Virus record (IMG/VR): IMGVR_UViG_3300050014_000823
Span: 78,773-142,772 of that record
Strand: one strand, 5' to 3'
DNA from: a virus
Length of the DNA stretch: 64,000 bases
The notes under the pieces were generated by a model. It worked only from the letters and a program-made list of their open reading frames with translations, searched no databases and was not told the DNA's origin. This document shows, in pieces, positions 5,307 through 40,945 of the stretch. Position 1 is the first letter of the stretch. Every line of letters starts with the position of its first letter. Both the position numbers and the translations under genes were made by a program.

Positions 5307-5696
5307 CTATAGTGATATTTCAAATCTACTTATCATTTTCAGTATTGTTTCATCGGGAACAGAATGTATATTTTTTGTTGACATTCGATTCTCAACTATA
5401 ATACTAAATACTTTGTAGTTGAAATTTTGTGCTAATTTCATATATGGTTGCAATTCTCTTTCGGTTGTCAAAGTGTTTGCAACAATAATGCGTGATGCTT
5501 GCTTCTTCATGAATCTCCTGCACTTACGCTGGCACCATGAGTGAGCTGCACCAATCTTAGCGGAATTCCACAAATACATACCGTCACGCACAAAATAATC
5601 ATCAGCACAACACACCGCTTTAATGCTAAGTGCCTCTGCCAATGACGATTTTCCACTGCCTGGAACGCCACGAATCAAAAATAATATCTTTTCCAT
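5307..5696 (-). CDS. P-loop kinase resembling the polynucleotide kinase (PNK) kinase domain
   Basis: Walker A GVPGSGKSS near N-terminus, 129 aa, similar to T4 Pnk N-terminal GCPGSGKST. Confidence 0.55.
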   Translation of the reverse strand: MEKILFLIRGVPGSGKSSLAEALSIKAVCCADDYFVRDGMYLWNSAKIGAAHSWCQRKCRRFMKKQASRIIVANTLTTERELQPYMKLAQNFNYKVFSIIVENRMSTKNIHSVPDETILKMISRFEISL

Positions 5697-5734
5697 TGTG
5701 CAATTATACGTAAAATAATTTAAAAGGTTATAAT

Positions 5735-5971
5735 TTATCTCAAAATAAATCTGTCATTGAGTGTTTTTTCCAATGACTCATAAATTTCTGAGTGTTTCTC
5801 CCAAAAAATTACAGCCATAAGTAGTTCTTCCCGAAGTCTACTGGCTTCGGCATCCCAATCTGGTGGTTCTTGCCAATATCCTACAAAGTGAATGACTGTT
5901 GTATTATCACTTCCAATATCATCGGGATTCTCTGGGTCAACGACCATTATACCATGTGTGAATTTTTCCAT
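5735..5971 (-). CDS. hypothetical protein
   Basis: 78-aa ORF. Confidence 0.35.
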   Translation of the reverse strand: MEKFTHGIMVVDPENPDDIGSDNTTVIHFVGYWQEPPDWDAEASRLREELLMAVIFWEKHSEIYESLEKTLNDRFILR

Positions 5972-14175: not shown

Positions 14176-14207
14176 GATTATACGAAATTGTCCCGGAAAT
14201 GTTACAA
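14176..14207 (-). promoter_or_regulatory. conserved phage promoter motif copy (TACGAAA variant)
   Basis: GATTATACGAAATTGTCCCGGAAATGTTACAA. Confidence 0.5.
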
Positions 14208-14987
14208 ATCCGGAACAAAAAAATCAAGAAATATTTTATCCTGAGTAAAAGTAGGACATTCACTACTTACCCAAACAGTCCTCTGATAGGCTTTTTGTTG
14301 CAGTTCTGCTTTAACAAAAGGAGTTTCCATTTCACGAACTTCTTTCTTAATAAACCTACCTCTTTTTTGCTGTGGGGTAAAGTCATTCCAGTTGATACCC
14401 TTTTGAAATATCATTTCCTGCTGTACGTTCATGTTCTTGCCGTTGAGTTCTCTGTGGCTGTAAAGTGTCTGAGCAACGCTTGAAATACTGTTGCGAACTG
14501 TGTCCTGTTGTCTCCAGATGAAGTAGTTTTTCACTTCATCGTTTGAAGGAATAGTAAACACCCTTGCATCGAATTCGGCAAGTTTCATATCGGCATAATT
14601 AAATCCAATAGTATGTTTTAATTGTCGAATTGTTCTTAATTGGTTGAACTTAGCGGTAGCTATACTTGCTGCAACACTGACAACCTTCTGCACGTTACCG
14701 TCAAACCAGGCATCAGTACCGATTTCATCGAAGTCGGTCATAAGAATACTGATTTCGTCACTCTGAACAAATGCGAATTTAGCACCCTGTATGTTCTTGC
14801 AGAGATACATTGCAGCTCCATCCATGTCAGTCATAAGACCTTCATCGAAAGGTTTTTTCATACCTCTGGTATAAGTGTGAAATGCTTTACCGTCAATACG
14901 GATAATGCTATATGACCTACGGGGAAGCCAAGTCTTTGCTCGGTCCTCATAATAGGATTTCATGCGATTTCCAAGTTCATCAACCAT
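14202..14987 (-). CDS. Thg1-like protein (tRNA-His guanylyltransferase family, 3'-5' nucleotidyltransferase)
   Basis: IIRIDGKAFHTYTRG...KPFDEGLMTDMDGAAMYL...FAFVQSDEISIL parallels Thg1 motifs (V.RLDGR.FH.F, KPND, SDE). Confidence 0.55.
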   Translation of the reverse strand: MVDELGNRMKSYYEDRAKTWLPRRSYSIIRIDGKAFHTYTRGMKKPFDEGLMTDMDGAAMYLCKNIQGAKFAFVQSDEISILMTDFDEIGTDAWFDGNVQKVVSVAASIATAKFNQLRTIRQLKHTIGFNYADMKLAEFDARVFTIPSNDEVKNYFIWRQQDTVRNSISSVAQTLYSHRELNGKNMNVQQEMIFQKGINWNDFTPQQKRGRFIKKEVREMETPFVKAELQQKAYQRTVWVSSECPTFTQDKIFLDFFVPDL

Positions 14988-15518: not shown

Positions 15519-16024
15519 TATTCGAATAGATTATATGGTTTATTAACTTTTACTACGCCTACTTTAATATAGTTTTTAATATCAAGTATCTTAGCAACAT
15601 CTTTTAACTTACAAACAAATACCCGGTCTTGGTCAAAATCAACTTCTTTAAGTTGATTATCTGCACCGTGATAATTTATTTTTATTCTCGTTAACTTGGG
15701 AACAACAAATACAATATATCTTCCCGCAAGCGAACCTAACTTGTAATATCCTTCGAACCGTTCAATACTAACAGTCAAGTATTCGAGTGTTTTAAAAATA
15801 TCTTCCATGTTAGAAGGTATTAATATTACATTTGCACCACCATGATTAGTGTCTTGAAAAATTGTTGCAGAAGTCTGATTGATTTTCGTACACAATGTTT
15901 GATTCCAATCAGTCTGATGCATACTTTCAGGATACTTACTGTCTTTATATCCTTCATAATCCCATGAAACTAAGGGTATGTGAGTCGATAAAAAGTTTTG
16001 TAGTTTACTCATTTTACTCTTCAT
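15518..16024 (-). CDS. hypothetical protein
   Basis: 168-aa ORF. Confidence 0.4.
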   Translation of the reverse strand: MKSKMSKLQNFLSTHIPLVSWDYEGYKDSKYPESMHQTDWNQTLCTKINQTSATIFQDTNHGGANVILIPSNMEDIFKTLEYLTVSIERFEGYYKLGSLAGRYIVFVVPKLTRIKINYHGADNQLKEVDFDQDRVFVCKLKDVAKILDIKNYIKVGVVKVNKPYNLFE

Positions 16025-17057
16025 TTTTAATCAAGAATTTGTTTGAAATTGCTTTAAAGCTAAGTCTGCCTTGATTTTTAAGTTCGTATCGTACAAATAC
16101 AACACCCTCACGTTCTGTCTGAGGATTAAGAGCACTTTTACCTTCTGCGTATGCGAGTATTTCATCAACACTGGCAGGAAGTATGTAATTCCTGTCAAGT
16201 ATAGGAACTGTCTCAATTTTAAGCGTATTGCACAGTTCAATCATTTCTTCGTATGGTAAAAATTCATACCTGTCAATGTCGAACATACGGAAAAACCTTA
16301 CGGTCTGACCTTTGAGTTTATATTTGTTCTTCTGAATACCCTCACCAATGATTTCACCCTGCAGACCTAAGTTCCTGCCAAGTACACCAAGTTTTTCCTC
16401 AAGAAAGTTCTGACGAGCAAATTTCCAAAATGAATTACTTGGACTTTCGTAGTATTCCCAATTCCTACCGCAAACACCGAACATACCGTCTTTCCAGAAG
16501 AAACTTCCACTGCTACCATCGAGTTTTTCGGTAGTAACAAATGACTGACCTGCATATTCAACAGGTATATGTGGAAGTATCTGAATACGGTCTTCATCGG
16601 TAATCATCATGAATGAAGGAAAACCACCTTTAGCATCACCCGCAAGTTCTGCAGGGATAGGTGCTTCGTATTTTTCAACACCAAGTTCCTCGCTGACATC
16701 AAAACCAACAGGACTGTCAGCTAAGTCATGTAAGGTAATTCTTGACCTTTCAAGTTCTTCGATATGCCATTTAGTATTAGCATTGAGTATATCCAACGGA
16801 AAACAAATGCCCTGGCTTACTTGCCCTCTCAAGCGTACTGTTCTGATTCTGTAGTTGTTGTGCTTTAAGAATTCAAATTCCTCACGTTTTGGAACGAGAC
16901 TATCTATTTCCAGATAGACCACTAATTCACCTACATGAAACTGATTTTTCTTAACTACGACTTTCCAGCCAAGAATTTGTGCAACCTCGATTGCTTGTGC
17001 ATCTGGAATAGGACTAAGATTTAAAATCCTCTGAATTGTTGCTAATTTTCGTGCCAT
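16014..17057 (-). CDS. ATP-dependent RNA ligase (Rnl family) with N-terminal extension
   Basis: nucleotidyltransferase motif I TEKLDGSS (KxDG), C-terminal FKAISNKFL lysine motif; 347 aa. Confidence 0.65.
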   Translation of the reverse strand: MARKLATIQRILNLSPIPDAQAIEVAQILGWKVVVKKNQFHVGELVVYLEIDSLVPKREEFEFLKHNNYRIRTVRLRGQVSQGICFPLDILNANTKWHIEELERSRITLHDLADSPVGFDVSEELGVEKYEAPIPAELAGDAKGGFPSFMMITDEDRIQILPHIPVEYAGQSFVTTEKLDGSSGSFFWKDGMFGVCGRNWEYYESPSNSFWKFARQNFLEEKLGVLGRNLGLQGEIIGEGIQKNKYKLKGQTVRFFRMFDIDRYEFLPYEEMIELCNTLKIETVPILDRNYILPASVDEILAYAEGKSALNPQTEREGVVFVRYELKNQGRLSFKAISNKFLIKNEE

Positions 17058-17409: not shown

Positions 17410-17573
17410 TCCGATTTATGTATGCCACCATAGCAATCACAGTGTTCGCACTTCTTACCCAACGATTGCTTTGCATCTTCTATCGCTATTGCCAATGCAA
17501 CCCAAGCATCTTCACTGATAGTAACTACTTTCTTCTCTTTTTCCATAATAATAAAATTAAAAAACCAGTTCAT
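17382..17573 (-). CDS. hypothetical small protein
   Basis: 63 aa. Confidence 0.3.
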   Translation of the reverse strand: MNWFFNFIIMEKEKKVVTISEDAWVALAIAIEDAKQSLGKKCEHCDCYGGIHKSDCLFILRLP

Positions 17574-17691
17574 TTATCCACTGGCAAGTTAGGTTTAGTT
17601 GCCAACTTTCCTTTGTGACGGTGCTTCCTTTATCTGGTATACCAGACCACAAAATTGAGCATGTTATCCGTCATTTCAACACGCAGCTATC

Positions 17692-18588
17692 GTGTTAGTA
17701 ATCGAGCGCAAGATAATAATTCGAAAATTAATATCCAAGTATTTATATAAAAATTTTCATATGAAACCAAATTTTAGTGAATCTGAATATCAAAACGCCA
17801 AATCAGAAGAATTATTATCTTGTTTATGTTATTCTTGTAATAACTCATTTAAAACATTTAAAAAAAATATAACCAGAGAATTAAATCACAATATGGAAAT
17901 AAATAAATTTTGTTCAAAAAAATGTCAAGGAGTATATTATACTAACAAAAACACTATCAAAACAAAATGTAAATGTTGTAATTCCGAAATGACTATACCA
18001 TTATCTCAATATAAAAATTCTGAATCGGGAAATAATTTTTGTTCACGTAGTTGTAACGCAACATATAATAGTCCACAAAGAATTTATAATAGTAGAATCA
18101 AAACTAACTGCAAAAATTGTAATAAAGAAATTAATGTAATATTTTCAGTTCATAAAAAATCAAAATCTGGAAATCATTTTTGTTCACAGTCTTGTGCTGG
18201 TACGTATAATAATACGCATAAAACTAAGGGTAATCGTAGGTCTAAACTTGAAAAATATCTTGAAGAACAATTAATTTTATTATATCCAGATTTGGAGATA
18301 TTATTTAATGATAAAAATATTATTAATTCTGAATTAGATATTTATATTTCCGAATTTAAAGTTGCTTTTGAACTTAACGGTATTTTTCATTATGAACCAA
18401 TATATGGTCAGAAAACATTAGGAAATATTCAAAATAATGATAATCGTAAATTTCAAGCATGTTTAGAAAAAAGTATTGAATTATGCATCATAGATACTTC
18501 TCAGCAAAAATATTTTAAAGAAGAATCATCCCAAAAATATTTGAACATTATTAAAATAATTATTGATAGTAAATTCAAAAAATTTTGA
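17692..18588 (+). CDS. Zn-finger-repeat protein with C-terminal Vsr/DUF559-like (PD-(D/E)xK) endonuclease domain; homing-endonuclease-like
   Basis: repeated FCS(K/R/Q)(K/S)C...YN modules; C-terminal ELDIYISEFKVAFELNGIFHYE resembles the (V/I)AIE.DG..H core of DUF559. Confidence 0.45.
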   Translation: MLVIERKIIIRKLISKYLYKNFHMKPNFSESEYQNAKSEELLSCLCYSCNNSFKTFKKNITRELNHNMEINKFCSKKCQGVYYTNKNTIKTKCKCCNSEMTIPLSQYKNSESGNNFCSRSCNATYNSPQRIYNSRIKTNCKNCNKEINVIFSVHKKSKSGNHFCSQSCAGTYNNTHKTKGNRRSKLEKYLEEQLILLYPDLEILFNDKNIINSELDIYISEFKVAFELNGIFHYEPIYGQKTLGNIQNNDNRKFQACLEKSIELCIIDTSQQKYFKEESSQKYLNIIKIIIDSKFKKF

Positions 18589-18692
18589 GCGCAGTGAGGG
18601 ATTCGAACCCCCCTGTCCAGTAAATTGGTGCACCATTTCTTCTGTCAACCACATCTTCCCGATGTGTGCCTTCCCCATTAGACTTACTGCGC
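18588..18692 (-). tRNA. tRNA-like gene, 105 nt, canonical T-arm and 7-bp acceptor stem; manual fold suggests type-II-like with anticodon loop CGGGAAG (GGA, Ser?) but the variable region is over-long
   Basis: reverse complement GCGCAGT-AA-GTC-TAATGGGGAA-GGC-A-CACAT-CGGGAAG-ATGTG-[37 nt]-GGGGG-TTCGAAT-CCCTC-ACTGCGC-T; sits in a 400-nt ORF-free gap. Confidence 0.5.
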
Positions 18693-18990
18693 ATAAAAAA
18701 ATCTTTCTGACCGTTCCAAGTACGGAATAGCTTTTCAGTCCGTTTGTCCATTTGAACGAATTCATTTGGGGTCTGTGTGGGTCTCCGGATGCGCATTGTG
18801 AAGAGGCGTGAGTCCCTACTGCTACCTTTCAGTAAACACCGTCCTCTTGGAAGGACATACAAGGCGACCACAGGTTCAACTGTCAGGAATTTCAAGTGTT
18901 TACGGGGACGAATCCCCCTCCCGTGCTTAAACAACCTTGCTGTTTACCTACAGCAGAAAGAAGTATTTTCAAAGAACATCGTACAAATGT
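18693..18990 (-). ncRNA. candidate structured small RNA(s) in tRNA region (unknown class)
   Basis: No credible ORF on either strand. GC-rich hairpins and a long-range helix GTAAACAC...GTGTTTAC are present. The region ends in a terminator-like hairpin plus T-run that abuts the tRNA 5' end. This resembles the stable RNAs found in T4 tRNA regions. Confidence 0.4.
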
Positions 18991-18995
18991 AGTAA

Positions 18996-19346
18996 TTATT
19001 CTAACAAGTTCGATATATATTTAATAGTTTCTTCACATTTTGGTATTTCTTTTTCAATCAACTTCTTCAACTTGCCTTTCAAGTCTTCTTTTTCTTCCTT
19101 GAAGTAGAGTTTGAGAAGCGACAGGAGATTATACGAAGGTGTGAGTTTGTTGCGAATATCTGCACCAACAGTACTTGAATCTCGTATTTCATACATTTCG
19201 AATTCTACAAGTTCAAGGTCATCCAAATCAAATTGGTCCGGAAGTGCTTCATACTTTGCATAGTATTCTCTCAAACCTTCCATAGTAGCAGTCAATGGCT
19301 GTGTGTGAGGTAGGTTACAAGTATACATTATCATGGTATTAGCCAT
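18996..19346 (-). CDS. hypothetical acidic protein
   Basis: start moved to internal Met to avoid a 70-nt overlap with the upstream HicB-like gene. Confidence 0.4.
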   Translation of the reverse strand: MANTMIMYTCNLPHTQPLTATMEGLREYYAKYEALPDQFDLDDLELVEFEMYEIRDSSTVGADIRNKLTPSYNLLSLLKLYFKEEKEDLKGKLKKLIEKEIPKCEETIKYISNLLE

Positions 19347-24363: not shown

Positions 24364-25107
24364 TTATGTTTTTAATTTATATTTCCAAATATATTTACCG
24401 GATGTTTTTATTCTTCCTTTTAAACAAGCACAAATGCTGCTTTTATTAATGTTTAATTTTTTTGATGCTTCAATAATGCCATTCCAATTACGTATAAATT
24501 TTTCATTTAAGTCATATTGTGAAATTTTCACTAATATTTGTTTTCTTTGTTTTTCAATTTCTTTTTTTGTTTTCTTTCTTCCTAATTGCGATTTATTGTG
24601 TCCACTAATAAATCTTTTTGAAGATGTAATCATACAAATGAAAGATTTTTGACAACCACAAACACAAATTCTTTCTTCACGTGGAATATATCGTGGACTA
24701 TCTTTGCCTGATTTATGATGACAAATGGGACAATCACAATCTACTTTATGTCCTCTTTCTTCTGTTGTTTGACCAATATGTGCCAATGACATATTCAATT
24801 TTGATTTATCCGTATGTTTCACACCTAAAGGACTACCTGCAATTTTTGCAAAATTAAATGTTGGAGATAAATTGTCAATCCAATACTGTTCTCTTGTAAT
24901 TAAATTTTCTTTTTTATCTACAACCTCAATAATTTCAAAAATAAATGCATCTTCACCATATTTATTCCAAGAATTTTGAATAAATTGATTTTTATGTTTA
25001 TTTTTTCTCAAAGAACTAATATGACCCCATTTTCGATTTTTAAAATTAACTGCTGAACCAATATAGAAGTCATTTGTTATTAAATTGGTTATTTTATAAA
25101 TTACCAT
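24364..25107 (-). CDS. GIY-YIG homing endonuclease with Cys-rich zinc-finger linker
   Basis: MVIYKITNLITNDFYIGSAVNFKNRKWGH; CDCPICHH...CVCGCQ. Confidence 0.8.
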   Translation of the reverse strand: MVIYKITNLITNDFYIGSAVNFKNRKWGHISSLRKNKHKNQFIQNSWNKYGEDAFIFEIIEVVDKKENLITREQYWIDNLSPTFNFAKIAGSPLGVKHTDKSKLNMSLAHIGQTTEERGHKVDCDCPICHHKSGKDSPRYIPREERICVCGCQKSFICMITSSKRFISGHNKSQLGRKKTKKEIEKQRKQILVKISQYDLNEKFIRNWNGIIEASKKLNINKSSICACLKGRIKTSGKYIWKYKLKT

Positions 25108-27841: not shown

Positions 27842-28437
27842 TATGTTCGCTTTATTGAGTAGTTAAAAAATCTTTCTATTCTATATACTATATTGGGTGT
27901 TAGTCCACTATATGCATCACACTGAAAAAAGTTATATTGTTGCCAGAGCAACATATCCGAGTCATCGTCAATGATTGCATAACGGCTGAATTCGTGGCTG
28001 TGTACACCAAACCATTTTTGACAATTATCATCCAGCCATTTGTATATTTCAACACCACGTATTCTTTCATTGCAATATCCGGTTTTATCTATTATTGTAA
28101 ATGTACCGCCACAATAATTGAATATTTCCTGTAATTCTTCCGGAGTCCAACCACTTCTCATTGATGCTGAGAGGACTACAGCACTGTTGGTTCTTTCACA
28201 AAGTCCATTAAGCATGTCCATACGCATCGGACACATTTCACCTTTATAGTAATCCCACTTAGAAATTTCCTTTGTCTTAAGCATCTTCCGGAGATATTTC
28301 TTCACTGTCTTATAGAAAGGTATACCACTATATTGTGTCAAGTGTTTATACCTTTCAGTATAAAATAACTGACAATTCAAAACACCATCAACGTCCAAAA
28401 ACACCAAATTTTGAAATTTATTAAGTTCTGGTTCCAT
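27841..28437 (-). CDS. HAD-superfamily phosphatase (PNK 3'-phosphatase-like / HAD_SAK-like)
   Basis: motif I VFLDVDGVLN; 198 aa. Confidence 0.55.
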   Translation of the reverse strand: MEPELNKFQNLVFLDVDGVLNCQLFYTERYKHLTQYSGIPFYKTVKKYLRKMLKTKEISKWDYYKGEMCPMRMDMLNGLCERTNSAVVLSASMRSGWTPEELQEIFNYCGGTFTIIDKTGYCNERIRGVEIYKWLDDNCQKWFGVHSHEFSRYAIIDDDSDMLLWQQYNFFQCDAYSGLTPNIVYRIERFFNYSIKRT

Positions 28438-29230
28438 TTTTATATATATTATATTTACGCATTAAATAATATTTAAAATTATTGTCACCATAAATGTAAT
28501 TTAAAAATTTATCTGCACCTTTATATAGATACATTTTCCACACATTTGGCTTATTCTTAGAGACTTTGGTTCTTGACAATTCATTAATACCCATATCGGT
28601 CAATAAAATACCAATAAAGTCTAACACTTCTTTGGTTGAAATGAGACTTATTCGCAACTTTCCTTGATTTCGAAAACCAACTGACCCGTCACCATCAAAT
28701 AATCCCGCAATAAAATAAGAATAATATTCTTCATCAATCTTAGGAAATTCCAATGCATTGGTTTTATTTGATGTTATGCCCAAATTAATTAAATGTTCTA
28801 CAAACAACTCATTACCAATTTGAATTGAATATCCGGTATATGTTTTATTGGTTCGCTTATCGAAATTAGTTCTTATGCTAATAGCATGTTCTGCACCAAT
28901 AGCTTTCTTAAAATTTTCAATAACAATTAAATCTTTTGATATTAATGAAACTTTATTATTACTTTTCTTAATATTGCCATCCGCACAAATAAATCCAAGC
29001 CAATATGCTTTATCCGGAGAATTGATTTCCTTGAAATAGTCTATACTAAGTGCAAGATGACTCATATTCAATCTACTCTTTTTTTGTTTGGAGATACCGT
29101 TTCTCATTAAAATTAATCGAATTCCTGGTTGAGTTCTTCCGTACTTCAATGCAATTGATTTTTGTGACATTGTTTTGGATAATTCAATAATTTCCATTTC
29201 CAATGCTTTAGTTGCAGGTCTTGTTGTCAT
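28421..29230 (-). CDS. double-motif LAGLIDADG homing endonuclease
   Basis: AYWLGFICADGNI and SYFIAGLFDGDGSV. Confidence 0.8.
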   Translation of the reverse strand: MTTRPATKALEMEIIELSKTMSQKSIALKYGRTQPGIRLILMRNGISKQKKSRLNMSHLALSIDYFKEINSPDKAYWLGFICADGNIKKSNNKVSLISKDLIVIENFKKAIGAEHAISIRTNFDKRTNKTYTGYSIQIGNELFVEHLINLGITSNKTNALEFPKIDEEYYSYFIAGLFDGDGSVGFRNQGKLRISLISTKEVLDFIGILLTDMGINELSRTKVSKNKPNVWKMYLYKGADKFLNYIYGDNNFKYYLMRKYNIYKNGTRT

Positions 29231-30880: not shown

Positions 30881-31450
30881 ATGAATACAACATTTAAAAA
30901 TTTAAGAGAAATTGCACGTAAACAATACAATGATTCTAATTGTAGTTATGGTGATGGTGAATATATGATTCATATTGATATGGTGAGCGATTTTCTTTTT
31001 AATCACATTGCAGTATTTAAAACACTTAATGATGCCGAAAACACATTAAATGCATCGCTTTTTCACGATAGCATGGAAGATGCCAAACAAACCTATAACG
31101 ATATTTGTATGGTTGCAGGTAAAGACGTTGCCGACATTACATTAGGTGTAACCGATGTACCTGCCGAAAACCGTCTGATGAAGCATTTGCTAACAATGGG
31201 TAAAACTGTTCGTGACTATCGTGCAATCATACTGAAAATGGCTGATATGTATTCAAATGCCAAGTACAGTAAGCAAAGTGGCAGTACTATGTATGTAAAG
31301 TATGTTGCAGAGTACCGCTATCGTAAGCCAATATTTGAAATGGCATTAAGTTGGTACAAGAACGACCTTAACCAAGAAGTACTTGCTGTCATTTGGAAAG
31401 AACTTGACGAAATTCACACACCAGATAATTTTGTTCTTAAAACGATATAG
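30881..31450 (+). CDS. HD-domain phosphohydrolase
   Basis: MIHIDM...LFHDSMED...D spacing typical of HD domains; start at Met19 to avoid overlap. Confidence 0.5.
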   Translation: MNTTFKNLREIARKQYNDSNCSYGDGEYMIHIDMVSDFLFNHIAVFKTLNDAENTLNASLFHDSMEDAKQTYNDICMVAGKDVADITLGVTDVPAENRLMKHLLTMGKTVRDYRAIILKMADMYSNAKYSKQSGSTMYVKYVAEYRYRKPIFEMALSWYKNDLNQEVLAVIWKELDEIHTPDNFVLKTI

Positions 31451-31498
31451 GGTATGCCGAAAACCTCATAGAGTAGGCACAATTAATACACATTAAAC

Positions 31499-32518
31499 AT
31501 GTTGTTATTTAAAATTTTAGCTTGGCTCATATTAATTTATGGGATTGTTGCACTCATCCTGCGCACAGTAAAGGTTGTTAATGAAGTCCCGGATGGTGAC
31601 AAAGACAGCTACGGCAGACAGAAAACCAAAAAAGTCAGTGAAAGCATCAAATTGCCATTCGCAATTCCTTCACTTATTTTAGGTTTAATTACTGCTGTTA
31701 CTCTTGCACTTGTTACAATCGTTGGCGCACAGGAAGTTGGCGTTATTACTACCCCGCAGGGAGTCGTAGAACAGCCGTTACACACTGGTTGGCATATGGT
31801 GATGCCTTGGAATAAAGTTCATTTTATGGACAAAACCGTATGGGTATATACTTGTGCACAAGCCATTAAAGAAGGCGCAAAGCCTAATGCAGACGCAATC
31901 TGGGCACCGACTAAGGACGGTATTAAGATGGGTTTTGACGTATCAGTTTCATGGAGAATTGTCGGTAATGAAGCACCGTGGATTTATCAGAACGTAACTG
32001 AGAATGATGGTGGTAATTCAGGTAGATATATTTGGCTCGAAGAAAACGTAATCAGACCCAAATTAAAATCCGCTATGGCATTAACAGTATCTAACTACAC
32101 CCCTATCGAAGCCTACAGTACCAAAAGACAGGACATTCAGAACGATATTCTTAATCGTATGATTGCCGAATGTAAGCAGTACAAGTTGCAGATTGACAAC
32201 GTTGACGTAAGAGAGGTTTACTACAACCCCGAATACGAAACATCAATCAACAACAAGAAACTTGCAGAACAGGAAGCATTACGTCTTGTGGAAGTTACCA
32301 AACAGCGTGAGGAACTTAAGAAACAGGAAGCCATCAACAAGGATATCGCTATCTTGAAGGCAGAAGGTGAAGCTAAGTCATTACAGATTAAAGGTAACTC
32401 AATCTCTAACAACCCGAAGATTATCCAGCTTGAGTGGGTAAACAAATGGGATGGAAAATTACCTATCTACATGATGGGTGATGCGCAGAGTGTCATGATG
32501 AACATGAATAATAAATAG
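31499..32518 (+). CDS. SPFH/band-7 (stomatin/prohibitin-like) membrane protein
   Basis: N-terminal TM, SPFH core, C-terminal coiled coil AEQEALRLVEVTKQREELKKQEA. Confidence 0.7.
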   Translation: MLLFKILAWLILIYGIVALILRTVKVVNEVPDGDKDSYGRQKTKKVSESIKLPFAIPSLILGLITAVTLALVTIVGAQEVGVITTPQGVVEQPLHTGWHMVMPWNKVHFMDKTVWVYTCAQAIKEGAKPNADAIWAPTKDGIKMGFDVSVSWRIVGNEAPWIYQNVTENDGGNSGRYIWLEENVIRPKLKSAMALTVSNYTPIEAYSTKRQDIQNDILNRMIAECKQYKLQIDNVDVREVYYNPEYETSINNKKLAEQEALRLVEVTKQREELKKQEAINKDIAILKAEGEAKSLQIKGNSISNNPKIIQLEWVNKWDGKLPIYMMGDAQSVMMNMNNK

Positions 32519-36761: not shown

Positions 36762-37367
36762 ATGTATATGATTGGAATAAAAGAAGCAGCAGAATTACTT
36801 GGAATTACTCCCAAAACATTAAGATTATGGGAGAAAAACGGTAAAATAACGAGTCATAGGACTGAAGGTCAACATAGAAGATATGTAGTTTCAGAACTTA
36901 TCGGTAGTCGTGGAGACAAACTATTAACAATTGCTTATGCCAGAGTATCAAGTTATGACCAGAAAGATGATTTAAAACGACAAGAATTGGTATTGGAAAG
37001 TTATTGTGCGAGTAAAGGATTTGAATTTGAATTAATTTCTGATTTAGGTTCTGGAATGAACTACAAGAAAAAAGGACTTATCAGATTAATAAAACTGATT
37101 TGCAGTAATCAAATTGATAGATTGGTAATCACACATAAAGACAGATTATTGAGATTTGGAAGTGAGTTAATTTTTATGCTTTGCGAAATCTTTGCTGTTG
37201 AAGTTTGTATAATTAATAGGAGTGAAGATAGCACCTTTGAAGAAGATTTAGCCAACGATGTTTTGGAAATTATAACTGTCTTCAGTGCAAGATTATATGG
37301 AAGTCGAAGCCATAAAAATAAACAGATAATACAACAATTAAAACAGGTAGCCAAAGATTTGAAATGA
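36762..37367 (+). CDS. tnpA: IS607-family TnpA (second, divergent copy)
   Basis: IKEAAELLGITPKTLRLWE; AYARVSSYDQ; overlaps the downstream tnpB by 4 nt. Confidence 0.8.
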   Translation: MYMIGIKEAAELLGITPKTLRLWEKNGKITSHRTEGQHRRYVVSELIGSRGDKLLTIAYARVSSYDQKDDLKRQELVLESYCASKGFEFELISDLGSGMNYKKKGLIRLIKLICSNQIDRLVITHKDRLLRFGSELIFMLCEIFAVEVCIINRSEDSTFEEDLANDVLEIITVFSARLYGSRSHKNKQIIQQLKQVAKDLK

Positions 37368-38539
37368 AGTCAATTAAGGTAAGATTAGAACTAAACAATA
37401 AGCAGACTACACTTGCCAATAAACACGCAGGAGTGGCAAGATATGCTTATAATTGGGGAAAATCTGTCTGTGATTTGGCAATACAAAATAAGGAGCACAG
37501 ACCAACAGCAATTGATTTACATAAGAAATTTGTTAAAGAAGAAAAAACTATTAAGTCTTGGTTGTATGAAGTATCCAAGTGCAGCCCACAACAAGGTTTA
37601 AGAAATTTGGATGAAGCATACAAAAGAACATTCAAAGTTAAAAGTAGTCATTTTCCTAAGTTCAAAAAGAAAGGACAACACGATAGTTTTTATCTGGAAG
37701 GTGCTATCAAAACTAATAGTAATAAAATTAAAGTACCTAAGTTTGGTTGGTTAAGATGTTCAGAAACATTACCAGAATGTGAAGTCAAAAATGTTGTTAT
37801 AAGTAAAACTGCTAATCAATGGTTTATTGCTTTTAAAATACCATTTGAACCACAGATTACTAATAAGGTGAATGGTGTTGTCGGTGTTGATTTAGGTATT
37901 AAAACACTTGCAGTATTGTCAGATGGTAAAGTATTTGAAGCAGTTAAACCATATAAACGAAACAAACGGAAATTAAAAATACTACAAAGAAGATTAAGTA
38001 AGAAACAGAAAGGTAGCCAAAATAGAAAAAAAGCCTGTGTGAAGATAGCAAAACTACATTACAGGATAGCAAACATTAGAAAAGATACCACACATAAATT
38101 AACAACATATTTAAGTAAAAACCACACTGAATGTGTTATTGAAGACCTTTGTGTTCGTGGAATGAGTAAAAATCACAAATTAGCATCAGCCATATTGGAT
38201 GGTGGATTTTCAGAGTTCAGAAGACAATTAGAATATAAGTGTCAATGGTATGGTTCAACACTAACAATAGTTGATAGATTTTATCCAAGTTCAAAGACTT
38301 GTAGTGGATGTGGTAATGTTAAAAAAGAACTAAAATTATCTGAAAGAGAATATGTTTGTGAGAATTGCGGATTGGTGATAGATAGAGACCTAAATGCTGC
38401 AATTAATTTAAGAAATAAGTCGGTGAGTTACACCGAATCAGCCTGTGGAGTGCCTAAACAACTTGATACTTTTGTATCTGGTGGCGCAATGAATCAGGAA
38501 GTAAATTGCAATGTTCAACATTGTGTAAGTTTTACGTAA
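37364..38539 (+). CDS. tnpB: TnpB (IS605/IS607 OrfB; RuvC-like RNA-guided nuclease family)
   Basis: RuvC-I GVDLGIKTLAV, RuvC-II VIEDL, zinc finger CSGCG...CENCG, RuvC-III RDLNAAINL. Confidence 0.85.
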   Translation: MKSIKVRLELNNKQTTLANKHAGVARYAYNWGKSVCDLAIQNKEHRPTAIDLHKKFVKEEKTIKSWLYEVSKCSPQQGLRNLDEAYKRTFKVKSSHFPKFKKKGQHDSFYLEGAIKTNSNKIKVPKFGWLRCSETLPECEVKNVVISKTANQWFIAFKIPFEPQITNKVNGVVGVDLGIKTLAVLSDGKVFEAVKPYKRNKRKLKILQRRLSKKQKGSQNRKKACVKIAKLHYRIANIRKDTTHKLTTYLSKNHTECVIEDLCVRGMSKNHKLASAILDGGFSEFRRQLEYKCQWYGSTLTIVDRFYPSSKTCSGCGNVKKELKLSEREYVCENCGLVIDRDLNAAINLRNKSVSYTESACGVPKQLDTFVSGGAMNQEVNCNVQHCVSFT

Positions 38540-39421: not shown

Positions 39422-40555
39422 ATGAAACTAATCCGTTCAACCAAATGTAGTCTGAAATTCGCAACAGCGAAGAAGCAGAATGAACTATCGGTCATCTTGA
39501 GTGAATACTCGAAGGTTGTTAATATCTTCATTGACTATTTCTGGTTGAATGCTGATAAAGCAACTAAAGGTGAACTTCTTAAACCAGTTGTTGATATTCC
39601 CGAAACATGGTTATCAGCACGACTGAGAAAAGTAGCAGCCAGAGAAGCAATCGACATGATTAATGCCAGTAAGCAAAGGTGGAAAGAAAAAGCAGTGAAG
39701 CCAGTTCATAAAGGTAACAGAATGTATGTTAGTTGCACCATTGCTGATTTGGTATCCACAAAGAACAACGGATATAAAACCGAAGACAGTTTGAGGTTTG
39801 ATGCTTGGTTACACATAGCAAGTGTTGGTAACAAAATGATAATGGACTTACCGATTAAATATCACAAACATTTCAACAAATATAATAACATCGGTAAGAG
39901 ATTGAATTCATATATCATCACCAAGAATTATGTCCAGTTCAGTTTTGAGATAATCACCGAGACAAAAAAGGAAGGTAAACATTGCATCGGTATCGACACT
40001 GGAATAAACGCACTGGCAAGTCTTAACAACGGCAATCAGTATGGTCTGGACATCAAAGGTTGTATCGAGAGAGTTAAAAGATGTAAGCAGAAGTCCAAAG
40101 GTTATTATGTTGCTAAAAGAGCGTTGAAACAAAGAATTGATGAAACAGCGAAAGAGATATTAGTAAAAGAAAATCCAGATTTAATTGTTGTTGAACAACT
40201 AAAAAAGATGGGATATAAAAGTAAAGCCAAACGCTTGTTGGCTAAAAATATCAGGCGTTCTATCGGAACTTGGAATTGGAAGTATTGGCTCAAAAGGTTA
40301 GAAGCACAATGCGAGATTAACCGTGTTAGTTTTCGCAGTGTAGCACCTTATTACACCAGTACAACCTGTCCAGTATGTGGTCATTCTGATAGGGGAAATC
40401 GACTCGGTGAAGTGTTCTTGTGTCTATCATGTGGTCACAAAGACAATGCAGATATAAATGCGGGTAAGAACATTTTGAATCGGTTTCTCACGGGACAATA
40501 CGGTGCTCGTTACAAGGAAATAAAGGATGTGCAAGTTTGTGCAGATTTATTTTAA
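39422..40555 (+). CDS. tnpB: TnpB-like protein, second copy with no adjacent tnpA
   Basis: GIDTGINALASL, VVEQL, CPVCGH...CLSCGH, NADINAGKNI. Confidence 0.8.
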   Translation: MKLIRSTKCSLKFATAKKQNELSVILSEYSKVVNIFIDYFWLNADKATKGELLKPVVDIPETWLSARLRKVAAREAIDMINASKQRWKEKAVKPVHKGNRMYVSCTIADLVSTKNNGYKTEDSLRFDAWLHIASVGNKMIMDLPIKYHKHFNKYNNIGKRLNSYIITKNYVQFSFEIITETKKEGKHCIGIDTGINALASLNNGNQYGLDIKGCIERVKRCKQKSKGYYVAKRALKQRIDETAKEILVKENPDLIVVEQLKKMGYKSKAKRLLAKNIRRSIGTWNWKYWLKRLEAQCEINRVSFRSVAPYYTSTTCPVCGHSDRGNRLGEVFLCLSCGHKDNADINAGKNILNRFLTGQYGARYKEIKDVQVCADLF

Positions 40556-40910: not shown

Positions 40911-40945
40911 AAATGCGCATAGAAGTGATTTTATGCGCATTTTTT
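40911..40945 (+). terminator. rho-independent terminator (two ATGCGCAT palindromes + T5)
   Basis: AAATGCGCATagaagtgattttATGCGCATTTTTT. Confidence 0.6.

What the first reader, a model, noticed from the sequence alone, without database searches (positions are those of the whole stretch)
18588..18990. Aberrantly long tRNA-like gene plus about 290-nt ORF-free structured RNA region
The minus strand carries a perfect tRNA 3' half (T-arm GGGGG-TTCGAAT-CCCTC, 7-bp acceptor GCGCAGT/ACTGCGC), but the matching 5' acceptor strand is 104 nt upstream, leaving about 30 extra nt. By hand I can fold a D-arm (GTC/GGC with GG in the loop) and an anticodon stem-loop CACAT-CGGGAAG-ATGTG (anticodon GGA, Ser), which leaves a 37-nt variable region. 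It could be a type-II tRNA with an unusual extra arm, an interrupted tRNA, or a tRNA-like element. The adjacent 290 nt have no ORF, contain GC-rich hairpins (GGGGGATTCGTCCCC) and an 8-bp long-range helix (GTAAACAC...GTGTTTAC), and end in a hairpin plus U-run right at the tRNA 5' end. This pattern matches the stable 'band' RNAs co-transcribed with tRNAs in T4-like phages; the class is unknown.
Basis: seen in the sequence. Interest (0 to 1): 0.6.

Follow-up and report, generated by a model that had tools for sequence, protein, structure and literature searches.

The report
Jumbo-phage structured RNA plus anticodon-less tRNA mimic
This stretch of an uncultivated giant-phage genome encodes two conserved non-coding RNAs, a new ~260-nt structured RNA and a ~105-nt tRNA look-alike with no anticodon loop, which sit beside tRNA-repair genes and whose function is unknown.

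Summary
Window 18588-18692 (-) folds as a cloverleaf with an extra arm. The ~270 nt upstream form a discrete structured RNA ("module A", 18701-18962). I found 17 orthologs of the tRNA-like element and 12 of module A in related jumbo-phage contigs. Covariation supports both folds: 94% of cells pair, against 32-50% in slid controls, with 16-18 pairs changed on both sides.

The element is not a Ser(GGA) tRNA or an interrupted tRNA. All 12 members folded have a 4-5 nt loop (often GNRA) on a stem of variable length at the anticodon position, not a 7-nt loop. ARAGORN with introns allowed, or after any single deletion, gives a different "anticodon" in most orthologs. The extra arm carries a near-invariant GGUGCAC(C) palindrome.

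Rfam 15 has no family for module A. The two RNAs are modules of an RNA operon that in relatives continues into a third structured module and a terminator. In this window an HNH-type homing-endonuclease gene (17761-18588, +) has inserted at the tRNA-like 3' end and split the operon. An RNA ligase and a Thg1-like gene lie just downstream.

Likely mechanism (inferred): a co-transcribed precursor is cut at the tRNA-like element by RNase P and 3' processing enzymes. This would release stable RNAs that act as tRNA mimics or structural RNAs.

The parts
18963..18977 (-). Conserved motif GTTCTTTGAAAATAC immediately 5' of module A. Its role is unknown; it could be a promoter, a processing site or a spacer.
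   Evidence: Nearly invariant in 12 orthologs (A2). In L098/L091 the same motif precedes a different RNA module, and in L105/L108/L115 it lies between the tRNA-like element and module A. It occurs only once in the window.
18701..18962 (-). Module A: a ~260-nt structured RNA. Closing helix P1 is UUCUUUCUG (18954-18962) with CAGAAAGAU (18701-18709). P2 is GUAAACA (18941-18947) with UGUUUAC (18832-18838). A hairpin GUCCU-UCCAAG-AGGAC lies at 18841-18856. P3 is 18821-18825 with 18727-18731. P4 is 18806-18816 with 18779-18794, capped by the conserved loop CUCUUCACAAU. P5 is 18770-18775 with 18736-18741. The 3' hairpin is CCG...CGG (18711-18725), and its loop CUUGGA (18715-18720) is complementary to the UCCAAG loop.
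   Evidence: 12 distinct orthologs. RNAalifold gives 44 pairs, 12 with changes on both sides. An explicit 51-pair model gives 94.4% of cells paired against 32-42% in slid controls, 18 pairs with changes on both sides, and 0 of 500 shuffles reaching the observed values. No Rfam match. No conserved ORF.
18693..18700 (-). U-run plus AU linker (UUUUUUAU) joining module A to the tRNA-like 5' end. U at position -1 before G+1 is nearly invariant.
   Evidence: Alignments A2 and A3. The linker is only 2-5 nt beyond the U-rich run in all orthologs, which leaves no room for a separate promoter.
18588..18692 (-). Type-1 tRNA-like RNA (104 nt plus discriminator U at 18588). Acceptor is 18686-18692 with 18589-18595. 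D-arm is 18680-18683 with 18668-18671. Hairpin H1 is CACAUC-GGGAA-GAUGUG (18650-18666), with no anticodon loop. Extra arm H2 is ~18614-18647, with the palindrome UGGUGCACCA at 18626-18635. T-arm is 18596-18612. No CCA is encoded.
   Evidence: 12-sequence alignment and RNAalifold cloverleaf. 93.8% of cells paired against 35-50% in slid controls, 16 of 27 pairs with changes on both sides, 0 of 500 shuffles. The covariance model finds 17 family members at 68-108 bits and one copy in the window.
17713..18587 (.). AT-rich insertion (~875 bp, about 22% GC) that separates the tRNA-like 3' end from the rest of the RNA operon.
   Evidence: In orthologs the tRNA-like 3' end is followed directly by module D. 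In the window the collinear sequence resumes at 17712.
17761..18588 (+). Free-standing HNH-type homing-endonuclease-like gene (275 aa, Cys-rich) on the opposite strand. Its stop codon overlaps the tRNA-like discriminator base.
   Evidence: PHROG 559 'HNH endonuclease' E 1.2e-11, PHROG 3339 'homing endonuclease' E 2.6e-4. Weak zf-FCS match. The start at M24 of the mechanical ORF follows.
17705..17712 (-). Remnant second copy of a type-1 3' acceptor strand plus discriminator (CUUGCGCU), left on the far side of the insertion.
   Evidence: Identical to the 3' end of the L088/L089 type-1 genes and followed by the same CGAUUACUAAC.
17559..17704 (-). Module D: the conserved tail RNA of the operon (CGAUUACUAACACGAUAGCUGCGUG ...). 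It ends in the terminator-like hairpin CCAGU...ACUGG (17565-17584) plus a T-run (17559-17564).
   Evidence: Pattern match, sequence, alignment with 7-9 orthologs. RNAalifold gives 16 pairs, 6 with changes on both sides, including the long-range GACG/CGUC helix.

Best explanation
Shown: the locus is part of a conserved non-coding RNA operon of an uncultivated jumbo-phage lineage. The window's own contig appears to be ~299 kb, and relatives are 100-370 kb. The operon holds (i) module A, a ~260-nt multi-helix RNA closed by pairing of its two ends, and (ii) a ~105-nt type-1 tRNA-like RNA. The type-1 RNA keeps the tRNA top half: a 7-bp acceptor, a 5-bp T-arm with UUCRA loop, and a D-arm with GG. 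In all 12 members aligned it also keeps U at position 73 and G1-C72/C2-G71/G3-C70. In place of the anticodon arm it has a short-looped hairpin, often GNRA-capped, and it carries an extra arm with a near-invariant GGUGCAC(C) palindrome. It therefore cannot decode. Ancestrally the operon continued into a third structured module (D) and a terminator. In this genome an HNH homing-endonuclease gene inserted at the tRNA-like 3' end. Inferred: the modules are co-transcribed, because only 2-5 nt beyond the U-rich run separate module A from G+1 of the tRNA-like element, and U(-1) is conserved. The L-shaped tRNA-like element would then be recognised by host RNase P at its 5' end and by RNase Z or exonucleases plus the CCA-adding enzyme at its 3' end. 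That would give module A a defined U-rich 3' end and release a stable tRNA mimic. Most speculative: the mimic, and possibly module A, act in the tRNA-centred conflict with the host, for example as a decoy or cofactor for enzymes that recognise the tRNA body. This rests on the conserved synteny with an RNA ligase and a Thg1-like gene. The palindromic loops (GGUGCACC in the mimic, AUGCGCAU in module A) could mediate homodimerisation.
For: Conservation and covariation of both RNAs. No 7-nt anticodon loop in any of the 12 members folded. No consistent anticodon under any intron or deletion model in 17 orthologs. Modular arrangement: the tRNA-like element lies downstream of module A in most loci, upstream in L105/L108/L115, and without module A in L005. 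A long tRNA-like gene directly follows module A in nearly all loci examined. Linker length and conserved AU|G. Module D and its terminator close the unit. The gene-free gap at the same syntenic position occurs in all nine loci fetched through the neighbouring protein. RNA ligase and Thg1-like genes lie within 4.5 kb. The T4 precedent is a single precursor for tRNAs plus stable RNAs, with a homing endonuclease cutting at tRNA-gene 3' ends.
Against: There are no expression or processing data, so transcription, RNase P cleavage, CCA addition and stability are all inferred. The closing helix P1 and the palindromes are invariant, so covariation says nothing about them. The UCCAAG/CUUGGA loop-loop pairing is compatible with the data (90% of cells paired) but has almost no covariation of its own. 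Synteny with repair genes may simply reflect conserved gene order in this phage lineage. The conserved motif in front of module A could be an internal promoter, which would weaken the single-precursor model. Whole-region folding energy is not better than shuffles (z = -0.07).
Confidence: 0.6

Rival explanations
1. It is a functional decoding tRNA. Either it is a type-II tRNA-Ser(GGA) with an over-long variable arm, or it is a tRNA interrupted by a short intron (as reported for Lak and other huge phages) that splicing turns into a normal tRNA. The neighbouring RNA ligase might take part in that splicing.
For: The Rfam tRNA model passes its gathering score locally: 29.9 bits in the window and 32.9 in L089 and L098. 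ARAGORN calls Ser(GGA) for the window, L098 and L125 once the extra arm is deleted. Huge-phage tRNA genes with 'enigmatic introns' are documented. In the same clusters, L098 4890-5001 looks like tRNA-Leu(UAA) with a 43-nt insert. An RNA ligase gene is adjacent.
Against: None of the 12 members folded has a 7-nt loop or a U33 at the anticodon position. The loops are 4-5 nt on stems of 5-10 bp. With introns allowed, ARAGORN assigns about 13 different anticodons across the 17 orthologs, covering Ser, Phe, Thr, Asp, Leu, Cys and Stop, at varying sites. Brute-force deletion gives no common anticodon. The supposed insert contains the most conserved sequence of the whole RNA, GGUGCAC(C), which is not expected of an excised intron. 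ARAGORN with default settings of 17.
Confidence: 0.04
2. It is a decaying tRNA pseudogene or leftover homing-endonuclease target. The upstream GC-rich stretch is a remnant of a lost gene or of foreign DNA brought in with the endonuclease cassette.
For: A homing-endonuclease gene abuts the 3' end, and a duplicated 3' fragment lies on the other side. L005 has a 191-aa ORF where the window has module A. The window's P5 loop carries a lineage-specific 22-nt insertion.
Against: Both RNAs are conserved, with compensatory changes, across lineages whose neighbouring protein is only about 47-73% identical. Module A has no similarity to the L005 ORF. The tRNA-like gene is intact on the 5' side of the insertion, with a perfectly paired acceptor stem. 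Orthologs without any endonuclease gene carry the same RNAs.
Confidence: 0.03
3. Module A is a cis-acting leader, such as a riboswitch or a T-box-like sensor. Formation of its closing helix directly before the U-run would terminate transcription and so control expression of the downstream tRNA-like RNA and module D. On this reading it is not a stable trans-acting RNA.
For: The closing helix is followed immediately by a conserved run of 5-7 U. There are mutually exclusive pairings around the 3' hairpin: UUCC/GGAA or CCG/CGG locally, against CUUGGA with the distal UCCAAG loop. The UGGA in CUUGGA is complementary to U73 plus CCA of a matured type-1 RNA (read from the sequence).
Against: The terminator scan finds no terminator at that position. 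P1 is A-U rich and closes a ~240-nt multi-branched domain, which is atypical for an intrinsic terminator. In L105/L108/L115 the type-1 RNA lies upstream of module A, so module A is not consistently its leader. Four bases of complementarity are expected by chance. No known riboswitch or T-box model matches.
Confidence: 0.12
4. The type-1 RNA is a chargeable, non-ribosomal aminoacyl carrier. It would be aminoacylated through acceptor-stem identity elements and would donate the amino acid to a phage or host transferase.
For: In all 12 members aligned it has G1-C72, C2-G71, G3-C70 and U73. From my own knowledge, these coincide with the acceptor-stem identity set of E. coli tRNA-Gly. An intact L-shape would allow CCA addition. 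An ATP-grasp (R2K) gene is conserved a few kb upstream.
Against: Bacterial GlyRS also needs C35/C36, which are absent. No CCA is encoded; the trailer is CGA or CAA. No aminoacyl-tRNA transferase or aaRS gene was seen among the ORFs I scanned. This reading rests on resemblance alone.
Confidence: 0.06

Closest known systems
Phage T4 tRNA gene cluster with species I/II (band D/C) stable RNAs and the SegB homing endonuclease
   Same: In T4 a phage RNA operon transcribes tRNA-shaped genes and other small stable RNAs of unknown function as one precursor. A free-standing homing-endonuclease gene sits inside that cluster and cuts at the 3' ends of tRNA genes (PMC2330249). Here the HNH-like gene is inserted exactly at the 3' end of the tRNA-like gene.
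   Different: No sequence similarity to T4 or to any GenBank phage. The tRNA-shaped member here is not a decoding tRNA. The endonuclease is HNH-like rather than GIY-YIG and lies on the opposite strand. Module A is about twice the size I recall for the T4 species RNAs, and its covariation-supported fold was not compared with theirs.
Over-long 'tRNAs with enigmatic introns' of Lak and other huge phages (Devoto et al., bioRxiv 10.1101/356790)
   Same: These are also over-long tRNA-shaped genes in very large phage genomes. Bacterial tRNA finders miss them or leave them unclassified, and the same genomes encode an RNA ligase. Related clusters here do contain candidates of that kind, for example L098 4890-5001, a tRNA-Leu(UAA)-like gene with a 43-nt insert.
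   Different: For the type-1 element, no removable insert restores an anticodon loop, and the 'insert' is its most conserved part. It is a mimic, not an interrupted tRNA.
Non-decoding tRNA mimics used as processing handles or protein ligands: MALAT1/mascRNA, MHV68 vtRNAs, the tRNA-like domain of bacterial Y RNA YrlA (encoded with Rsr and the RtcB RNA ligase), and the tmRNA tRNA-like domain (from my own knowledge)
   Same: Like these, the type-1 RNA has an acceptor/T-arm/D-loop 'top half' without decoding capacity. Like mascRNA and the vtRNAs, it lies directly 3' of another structured RNA. Like YrlA, it is linked to RNA-repair genes.
   Different: No Rfam model of these families matches. Unlike YrlA and tmRNA, it has a free, complete 7-bp acceptor stem and a true D-arm. 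The GNRA-capped hairpin plus the palindrome-bearing extra arm has no counterpart that I know of.
Large phage- or prophage-associated structured RNAs often found next to tRNA genes (GOLLD, ROOL), reported to self-assemble into multimers (from my own knowledge)
   Same: Module A is also a phage-borne, highly structured RNA of unknown function next to tRNA-type genes. It has conserved loop sequences, including palindromes, that could mediate RNA-RNA contacts.
   Different: Module A is much smaller, ~260 nt against ~580-800 nt. The Rfam models for GOLLD and ROOL give no hit. Multimerisation is purely conjectural here.

Membership tests
Canonical tRNA (Rfam RF00005) | Cloverleaf with 7-bp acceptor stem, D-arm with G18 G19, and a 5-bp T-arm with T-loop UUCRANY | tested here: met
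   RNAalifold and pair counts on 12 orthologs give acceptor 95%, D-arm 96% and T-arm 100% of cells paired, with compensatory changes. GG and UUCRA are conserved.
Canonical tRNA (Rfam RF00005) | 5-bp anticodon stem with a 7-nt loop, U33, an anticodon at 34-36 and a purine at 37 | tested here: not met
   All 12 members folded have 4-5 nt loops (GGAA, GGGA, GAAA, GGGAA, CGAGU, CGUGU, ACAA) on 5-10 bp stems, and no U33.
Canonical tRNA (Rfam RF00005) | Length of about 70-95 nt and detection by tRNA finders or the family gathering score | tested here: inconclusive
   Length is 99-115 nt. ARAGORN with default settings of 17. The Rfam tRNA model scores 29.9-32.9 bits against a gathering score of 29, only in local searches, through the top half and with a 34-42 nt insertion.
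Class II (long-variable-arm) tRNA: Ser, Leu, Tyr, Sec | Variable-arm hairpin of about 13-22 nt combined with a normal anticodon arm and isotype identity elements | tested here: not met
   The extra arm is about 30-45 nt with a conserved GGUGCAC(C) apex. The anticodon arm is absent. The discriminator is U, not the G73 (Ser) or A73 (Leu, Tyr) that I recall for bacteria.
Intron-containing tRNA (group I, or short protein-spliced inserts as in huge phages) | Removal of one contiguous insert restores a canonical tRNA with the same anticodon in orthologs | tested here: not met
   ARAGORN -i assigns about 13 different anticodons at different sites across 17 orthologs. An exhaustive single-deletion scan gives no shared anticodon. 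No group I intron hit in Rfam.
tmRNA | tRNA-like domain formed by the 5' and 3' ends around a tag reading frame and pseudoknots, with G3-U70 | tested here: not met
   ARAGORN finds no tmRNA. The acceptor strands are 104 nt apart with a true D-arm. The 3:70 pair is G-C in all members aligned. Rfam gives only a 17-nt T-arm fragment hit elsewhere, in L098.
T4 species I/II stable RNAs | Sequence or structure homology to T4 rnaC/rnaD | tested here: not met
   blastn 'distant' of window 18400-19200 against 50,697 GenBank phage records, a collection I assume includes T4 and its relatives, found no match. Only the operon organisation is analogous. A structural comparison was not possible with these tools.
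Any curated RNA family (Rfam 15) for module A | A covariance-model match at or near the gathering score | tested here: not met
   Nothing at gathering thresholds in the window. At E <= 10 on the region there are only chance-level fragments, for example abiF at 19 bits against a gathering score of 37. Nothing in the ortholog L089.
Intrinsic terminator at the module A 3' end | Short GC-rich hairpin immediately followed by a T-run | tested here: not met
   The consensus scan reports no terminator at 18693-18725. The U-run follows a long-range A-U-rich closing helix.
Free-standing homing endonuclease in a tRNA cluster (SegB-like situation) | Endonuclease-family ORF that is present or absent among otherwise collinear relatives and is inserted at a tRNA(-like) gene 3' end | tested here: met
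   PHROG HNH/homing-endonuclease hits. The ORF is absent from L088, L089, L095 and L109, where the type-1 RNA is followed directly by module D or by another tRNA-like gene. A duplicated 3' acceptor remnant flanks the insertion. Endonuclease activity and target site were not testable.

The most novel reading that the evidence does not exclude
Module A and the anticodon-less tRNA mimic are the RNA parts of a previously unknown phage counter-defence or RNA-assembly system. One version: the mimic is matured by host tRNA enzymes and titrates or triggers a host factor that recognises the tRNA body, such as a tRNA-targeting nuclease or nucleotidyltransferase toxin, while the adjacent RNA ligase and Thg1-like enzymes repair real tRNAs. 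Another version: the palindromic loops (GGUGCACC, AUGCGCAU) drive formation of a homo- or hetero-oligomeric RNA particle, as reported for ROOL and GOLLD.
Probability: 0.15. Interest if true: 0.85.

Novelty: new variant of a known kind. Interest (0 to 1): 0.62.

Why it matters
Phage tRNA genes are now read mainly as codon-usage aids or as replacements for tRNAs destroyed by host defences. A conserved phage RNA that keeps the tRNA body and has no anticodon loop cannot serve either role. It therefore points to a use of tRNA shape that does not involve decoding, such as processing, decoy or scaffold functions. Module A adds a well-supported structured RNA class with no curated family and strongly conserved loops. 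The same clusters hold further over-long tRNA-like genes and structured modules, so this lineage is a compact system for studying the unexplained 'long tRNAs' of huge phages. On the practical side, standard annotation (ARAGORN, Rfam at gathering thresholds on whole contigs) leaves this whole RNA operon blank.

Tried and rejected
1. Nucleotide searches of GenBank phages (megablast of 20 kb, blastn of 800 nt) and a tblastn of the neighbouring protein found nothing.

2. An exact T-arm plus acceptor pattern in IMG/VR found only unrelated tRNAs: L001, a tRNA with a group-I-like intron, and L002, a tRNA-Val.

3. A back-translated search with the 151-aa neighbour in IMG/VR failed. The protein database search plus contig look-ups succeeded instead.

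4. The idea that the window's 290 nt is a decayed copy of the 191-aa ORF at that position in L005 was rejected. tblastn finds nothing.

5. The idea that the conserved motif before module A is a general phage promoter was not supported. It occurs once in the window and lies inside the RNA array in some relatives.

6. Restriction-site avoidance as the explanation for GTGCAC conservation was rejected. The site is not depleted: 12 observed, 9.5 expected.

7. A second pair of ATGCGCAT copies at 40913/40933 is an ordinary terminator hairpin.

8. RNase P RNA, SRP RNA, 6S, group I intron, T-box, Y RNA, GOLLD, ROOL and the small ribozymes were considered for module A. None has Rfam support, and I saw no P4-type conserved core by eye.

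None was a family member, so absence from bacteria is only provisional.

10. I did not predict the structure of the neighbouring 136-aa protein. It is acidic and has no family hit.
Full report
**1. What is at the coordinates**

On the minus strand, window 18692-18588 reads GCGCAGU-AA-GUCU...AGGC-A-CACAUC-GGGAA-GAUGUG-[~36 nt]-GGGGG-UUCGAAU-CCCUC-ACUGCGC-U. ARAGORN reports no tRNA or tmRNA anywhere in the 64-kb window. Rfam at gathering thresholds on the whole window reports only an unrelated DUF805b motif.

Searched alone, the region matches the Rfam tRNA model end to end at 29.9 bits (gathering score 29), with a ~34-nt insertion at the variable region. The minimum-free-energy fold is a cloverleaf plus an imperfect extra hairpin, with z = -3.15 against shuffles.

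The ~300 nt upstream are a sharp GC island. GC is 44-52% from 18600 to 18950, against 22-28% on either side in a genome of ~35% GC. Taken as one sequence, the 421 nt do not fold better than shuffles (z = -0.07).

**2. The genome**

The window is phage-like and has no nucleotide or protein match for this locus in GenBank phages. The flanking ORFs on the same strand are:

- an RNA ligase (PF21189 + PF09414; 16014-17057);
- a Thg1-like protein (14202-14987);
- an ATP-dependent DNA ligase, an R2K ATP-grasp protein and an adenylosuccinate synthetase;
- several homing-endonuclease-type genes.

The 136-aa protein encoded just upstream of the locus has about 200 homologs on metagenomic contigs of up to 372 kb. 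An identical copy lies on a 299-kb JGI contig. This is therefore an uncultivated jumbo-phage lineage.

**3. Orthologs**

I fetched loci through the RNA ligase, through homologs of the 136-aa protein and through degenerate DNA patterns. All nine loci fetched through the 136-aa protein have a gene-free gap of 330-735 nt at the same syntenic position, between that gene and the RNA ligase.

Profile searches recover both parts of the finding in these and other loci:

- 12 distinct sequences of the upstream RNA ("module A"), plus partial variants that share only its 5' domain;
- 17 distinct sequences of the tRNA-like element ("type 1").

A covariance model of type 1 separates these 17 (68-108 bits) from every other tRNA or long tRNA-like gene held (45 bits or less). 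It finds exactly one copy in the window. After profile filtering, none of 120 pattern matches in bacterial and archaeal genomes is a member.

**4. Module A is a real structured RNA**

The alignment shows invariant blocks separated by a hypervariable insert. The blocks are GUCUUUCUGCUG, GUAGCAGUAG, CACGCCUCU, ACAAUGCGCAU, CACAGACCC and GCGGACUGAAAAGCUAUUCCG...UUGGAACGGnCAGAAAGAUUU. The first block (UCUUUCUG) and the last (CAGAAAGA) are exact complements, which defines a closing helix and hence a discrete ~260-nt RNA (window 18962-18701).

RNAalifold predicts 44 pairs, 12 of them with changes on both sides. The predicted helices include:

- an 8-bp helix (P4) in which seven of the eight pairs show changes on both sides, in up to 6 of the 12 sequences.

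I then tested an explicit 51-pair model. It adds a variable-stem hairpin with the conserved loop UCCAAG, and a CCG/CGG hairpin whose loop CUUGGA can pair with that loop.

| Measure | Model | Slid-register controls | Shuffles reaching the observed value (of 500) |
|---|---|---|---|
| Cells forming a standard pair | 94.4% | 32-42% | 0 |
| Pairs with changes on both sides | 18 | 3-6 | 0 |

The loop-loop pairing itself is only compatible with the data: 90% of its cells pair, with little covariation.

No reading frame is conserved, and 91 of 102 alignment gap runs are not multiples of three. The RNA core is 71-96% identical to the window. The internal insert is 28-51% identical in all but the closest relative (84% in L088), and the adjacent protein is about 47-73% identical. 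Rfam 15 has no match for module A in the window or in a divergent ortholog.

**5. The tRNA-like element is a conserved tRNA mimic, not a tRNA**

RNAalifold on 12 orthologs returns an acceptor stem, D-arm, a hairpin at the anticodon-arm position (H1), an extra arm (H2) and a T-arm. Sixteen of the 27 pairs show changes on both sides. Pair counting gives 93.8% of cells paired, against 35-50% in slid registers and with 0 of 500 shuffles reaching the observed values. The T-arm pairs in 100% of cells.

Conserved tRNA features in the 12 members aligned:

- G1-C72, C2-G71 and G3-C70;
- discriminator U in 12 of 12;
- U8 in most members;
- GG in the D-loop and UUCRA in the T-loop;
- a nearly invariant U at position -1.

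No CCA is encoded; the trailer is CGA or CAA.

H1 never has a 7-nt loop. It is GGAA, GGGA, GAAA, ACAA or GGGAA on a 5-6 bp stem, or CGAGU/CGUGU on an extended 8-10 bp stem.

H2 has a covarying basal stem: GAUGU/ACAUC, GAUAG/CUAUC, GUAUA/UAUAC, GUUG/CAAC and CAG/CUG. Its apex is GGUGCAC(C) in nearly all members (AGUGCAC in two, L005 and L124), and the palindrome extends to UGGUGCACCA in several. GTGCAC is not otherwise unusual in the genome.

ARAGORN with default settings of 17 members. With introns allowed it of 17, or 17 of 17 at a relaxed threshold, but the calls are mutually inconsistent: about 13 different anticodons covering Ser, Phe, Thr, Asp, Leu, Cys and 'Stop', with introns at varying sites and of varying length. 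An exhaustive scan of every single deletion gives no shared anticodon. 'Ser(GGA)' appears only for the window, L098 and L125, where the loop happens to read C-GGGAA-G. The readings 'type-II tRNA-Ser' and 'interrupted tRNA' are therefore rejected for this element.

**6. The two RNAs are modules of a larger RNA operon**

In most loci module A is followed by type 1 after a linker of only 2-5 nt beyond the U-rich run, always ...AU|G. In other loci it is followed by a different long tRNA-like gene ('type 2', beginning GAUUGGAUGGCGAAAUUGG). In L105, L108 and L115 type 1 precedes module A. L005-L009 have type 1 without module A.

In the orthologs L089, L095 and L109, type 1 is followed directly by a third conserved element, module D. 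In L088 a type-2 gene intervenes. Module D begins CGAUUACUAACACGAUGGCUACGUG. It has its own covarying helices and ends in a hairpin plus T-run.

Relatives such as L098 and L091 carry still more modules:

- a ~160-nt tRNA-like gene;
- a ~100-nt element after the same GUUCUUUGAAAAUA motif;
- in L098, a tRNA-Leu(UAA)-like gene with a 43-nt insert, which scores 45.6 bits as tRNA in Rfam.

**7. What happened in this window**

The opposite-strand ORF that ends at 18588 matches phage HNH/homing-endonuclease families (PHROG 559, E 1.2e-11). It lies in an AT-rich (about 22% GC) segment of ~875 bp. On the far side of that segment the minus strand resumes with CUUGCGCU-CGAUUACUAACACGAUAGCUGCGUG... (17712 downwards). 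That is a remnant of a type-1 3' end followed by module D and its terminator, collinear with the uninterrupted orthologs.

So a free-standing homing-endonuclease gene has inserted at the 3' end of the tRNA-like gene. The sequence just 3' of the intact copy (UCAAAAUUUUUUGAAUUUAC) resembles the UCAAAGUUCUUUGAAAAUAC that follows type 1 in L098 in about 16 of 20 positions, by my own reading. This hints at co-conversion from a donor with a different module order.

The situation mirrors T4 SegB. SegB lies within the T4 tRNA cluster, recognises the T-psi-C motif and cuts at the 3' ends of tRNA genes. The T4 cluster is transcribed as one ~1.75-kb precursor of eight tRNAs plus species I and II RNAs (PMC2330249).

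**8. How it most likely works**

Shown: two (with module D, three) conserved, covariation-supported RNAs, one of which is a tRNA-shaped molecule that cannot decode.

Inferred with moderate confidence: the modules are co-transcribed. The tRNA-like element, with its 12-bp acceptor/T stack, D/T elbow, U(-1) and G(+1), is a substrate for RNase P and for 3' end maturation. That would release module A with a stem plus U-rich 3' end, and release the mimic as a stable RNA. Known parallels are T4 and, from my own knowledge, MALAT1/mascRNA and the MHV68 vtRNAs.

Speculative: the released RNAs act through tRNA mimicry or RNA-RNA assembly. This rests on the conserved proximity of RNA ligase and Thg1-like genes, on the GNRA cap, and on the palindromic loops GGUGCACC and AUGCGCAU. 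From my own knowledge, these have the same form as retroviral kissing-loop dimerisation sites.

The rivals are a riboswitch-like leader, an aminoacyl carrier, a decoding tRNA and a pseudogene. They are weighed in their own section. The last two are effectively excluded.

**9. Comparison and novelty**

In organisation this is a T4-like 'tRNA plus stable RNA' operon with a SegB-like invader. In content it differs. There is no detectable homology to T4, the tRNA-shaped gene is an anticodon-less mimic, and module A matches no curated family.

'Enigmatic' long tRNAs in huge phages are on record. A large computational catalogue of phage structured-RNA candidates also exists (PMC10690425). The searches and passages I read did not describe this mimic or module A, but I cannot exclude that they appear unannotated in such catalogues.

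I therefore rate the finding a new variant of a known kind. Interest is moderate to high (0.62). The structures are solid and unusual, but the function is unproven.

Noticed in passing
window 17559-17704 (-): A third conserved RNA module (module D, starting CGAUUACUAACACG) with covarying helices and a terminator. It lies outside the finding's coordinates but belongs to the same ancestral operon. No Rfam match in the orthologs L089 and L098; the window copy itself was scanned only at gathering threshold.
   Followed up: partly
window 17761-18588 (+), with flanks 17705-17712 and 18588-18595: An HNH-type homing-endonuclease-like gene inserted at the 3' end of the tRNA-like gene. A duplicated 8-nt remnant of the 3' acceptor end lies on the far side. 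This is analogous to T4 SegB in the T4 tRNA cluster.
   Followed up: yes
L098 4890-5001; L088 5827-5933; L108 596-734; L106 1314-1452; L105 (149-nt gene just downstream of module A): 'Type-2' long tRNA-like genes of 107-149 nt with a tRNA-Leu-like D-arm. The L098 copy aligns to Rfam tRNA at 45.6 bits, with a 43-nt insert right after a UAA anticodon. These are candidate short-intron tRNAs like those reported in Lak phages.
   Followed up: partly
L098 4509-4670; L091 ~5447-5610: 'Type-3' tRNA-like genes of ~160 nt. They have a normal acceptor, D-arm and T-arm and a ~90-nt insert that contains a stretch resembling the type-1 D-arm/H1 junction (GGUGAGGCACA).
   Followed up: no
L098 4783-4890; L091 ~5613-5760: A further ~100-nt conserved element ('module C', AGCACUUCUUAGC...GAAAAGAAGA...). 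It follows the same GUUCUUUGAAAAUA motif that precedes module A and ends in a U-run.
   Followed up: no
L063 9308-9429, 9439-9563, 9571-9697; also L003 11842-11966, L016 4575-4687, L032 1281-1378, L055 5093-5231: Other phages that encode the PHA02142-type RNA ligase carry over-long tRNA-shaped genes. ARAGORN called nothing in L003 and L016; the other loci were not run through ARAGORN. They include three tandem 122-127 nt genes, each with a ~50-nt insert sharing motifs (AAAACAU..CUUG..CUUGCU..GAGCYGA..GAGRUUAUC).
   Followed up: no
L001 4498-4903: A tRNA gene in a 225-kb viral contig interrupted by a ~330-nt insert that looks like a group I intron. It shares only the T-arm and acceptor with the window element.
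   Followed up: no
window 31447-31479 (+): An Rfam DUF805b RNA motif (39.6 bits, gathering score 35.6) lies 20 nt upstream of an SPFH/Band_7 gene (31499-32518).
   Followed up: no
window 37364-38539 and 39422-40555 (+): Two TnpB/Cas12f-like (OrfB_IS605) genes lie close together in a phage genome. Their guide (omega/re) RNAs were not looked for.
   Followed up: no
window 14202-14987 (-), 16014-17057 (-), 24364-25107 (-), 28421-29230 (-): A Thg1-like gene and an RNA ligase lie directly downstream of the RNA operon. GIY-YIG and LAGLIDADG endonuclease genes are nearby, so the region is dense in mobile nucleases and tRNA-repair functions.
   Followed up: partly
L096 4535-4804; L112 3041-3184; L126 1299-1415: Variants of module A that keep only its 5' domain (P1 5' strand, P2, UCCAAG hairpin) joined to a different 3' part. 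This suggests domain shuffling within the RNA family.
   Followed up: no
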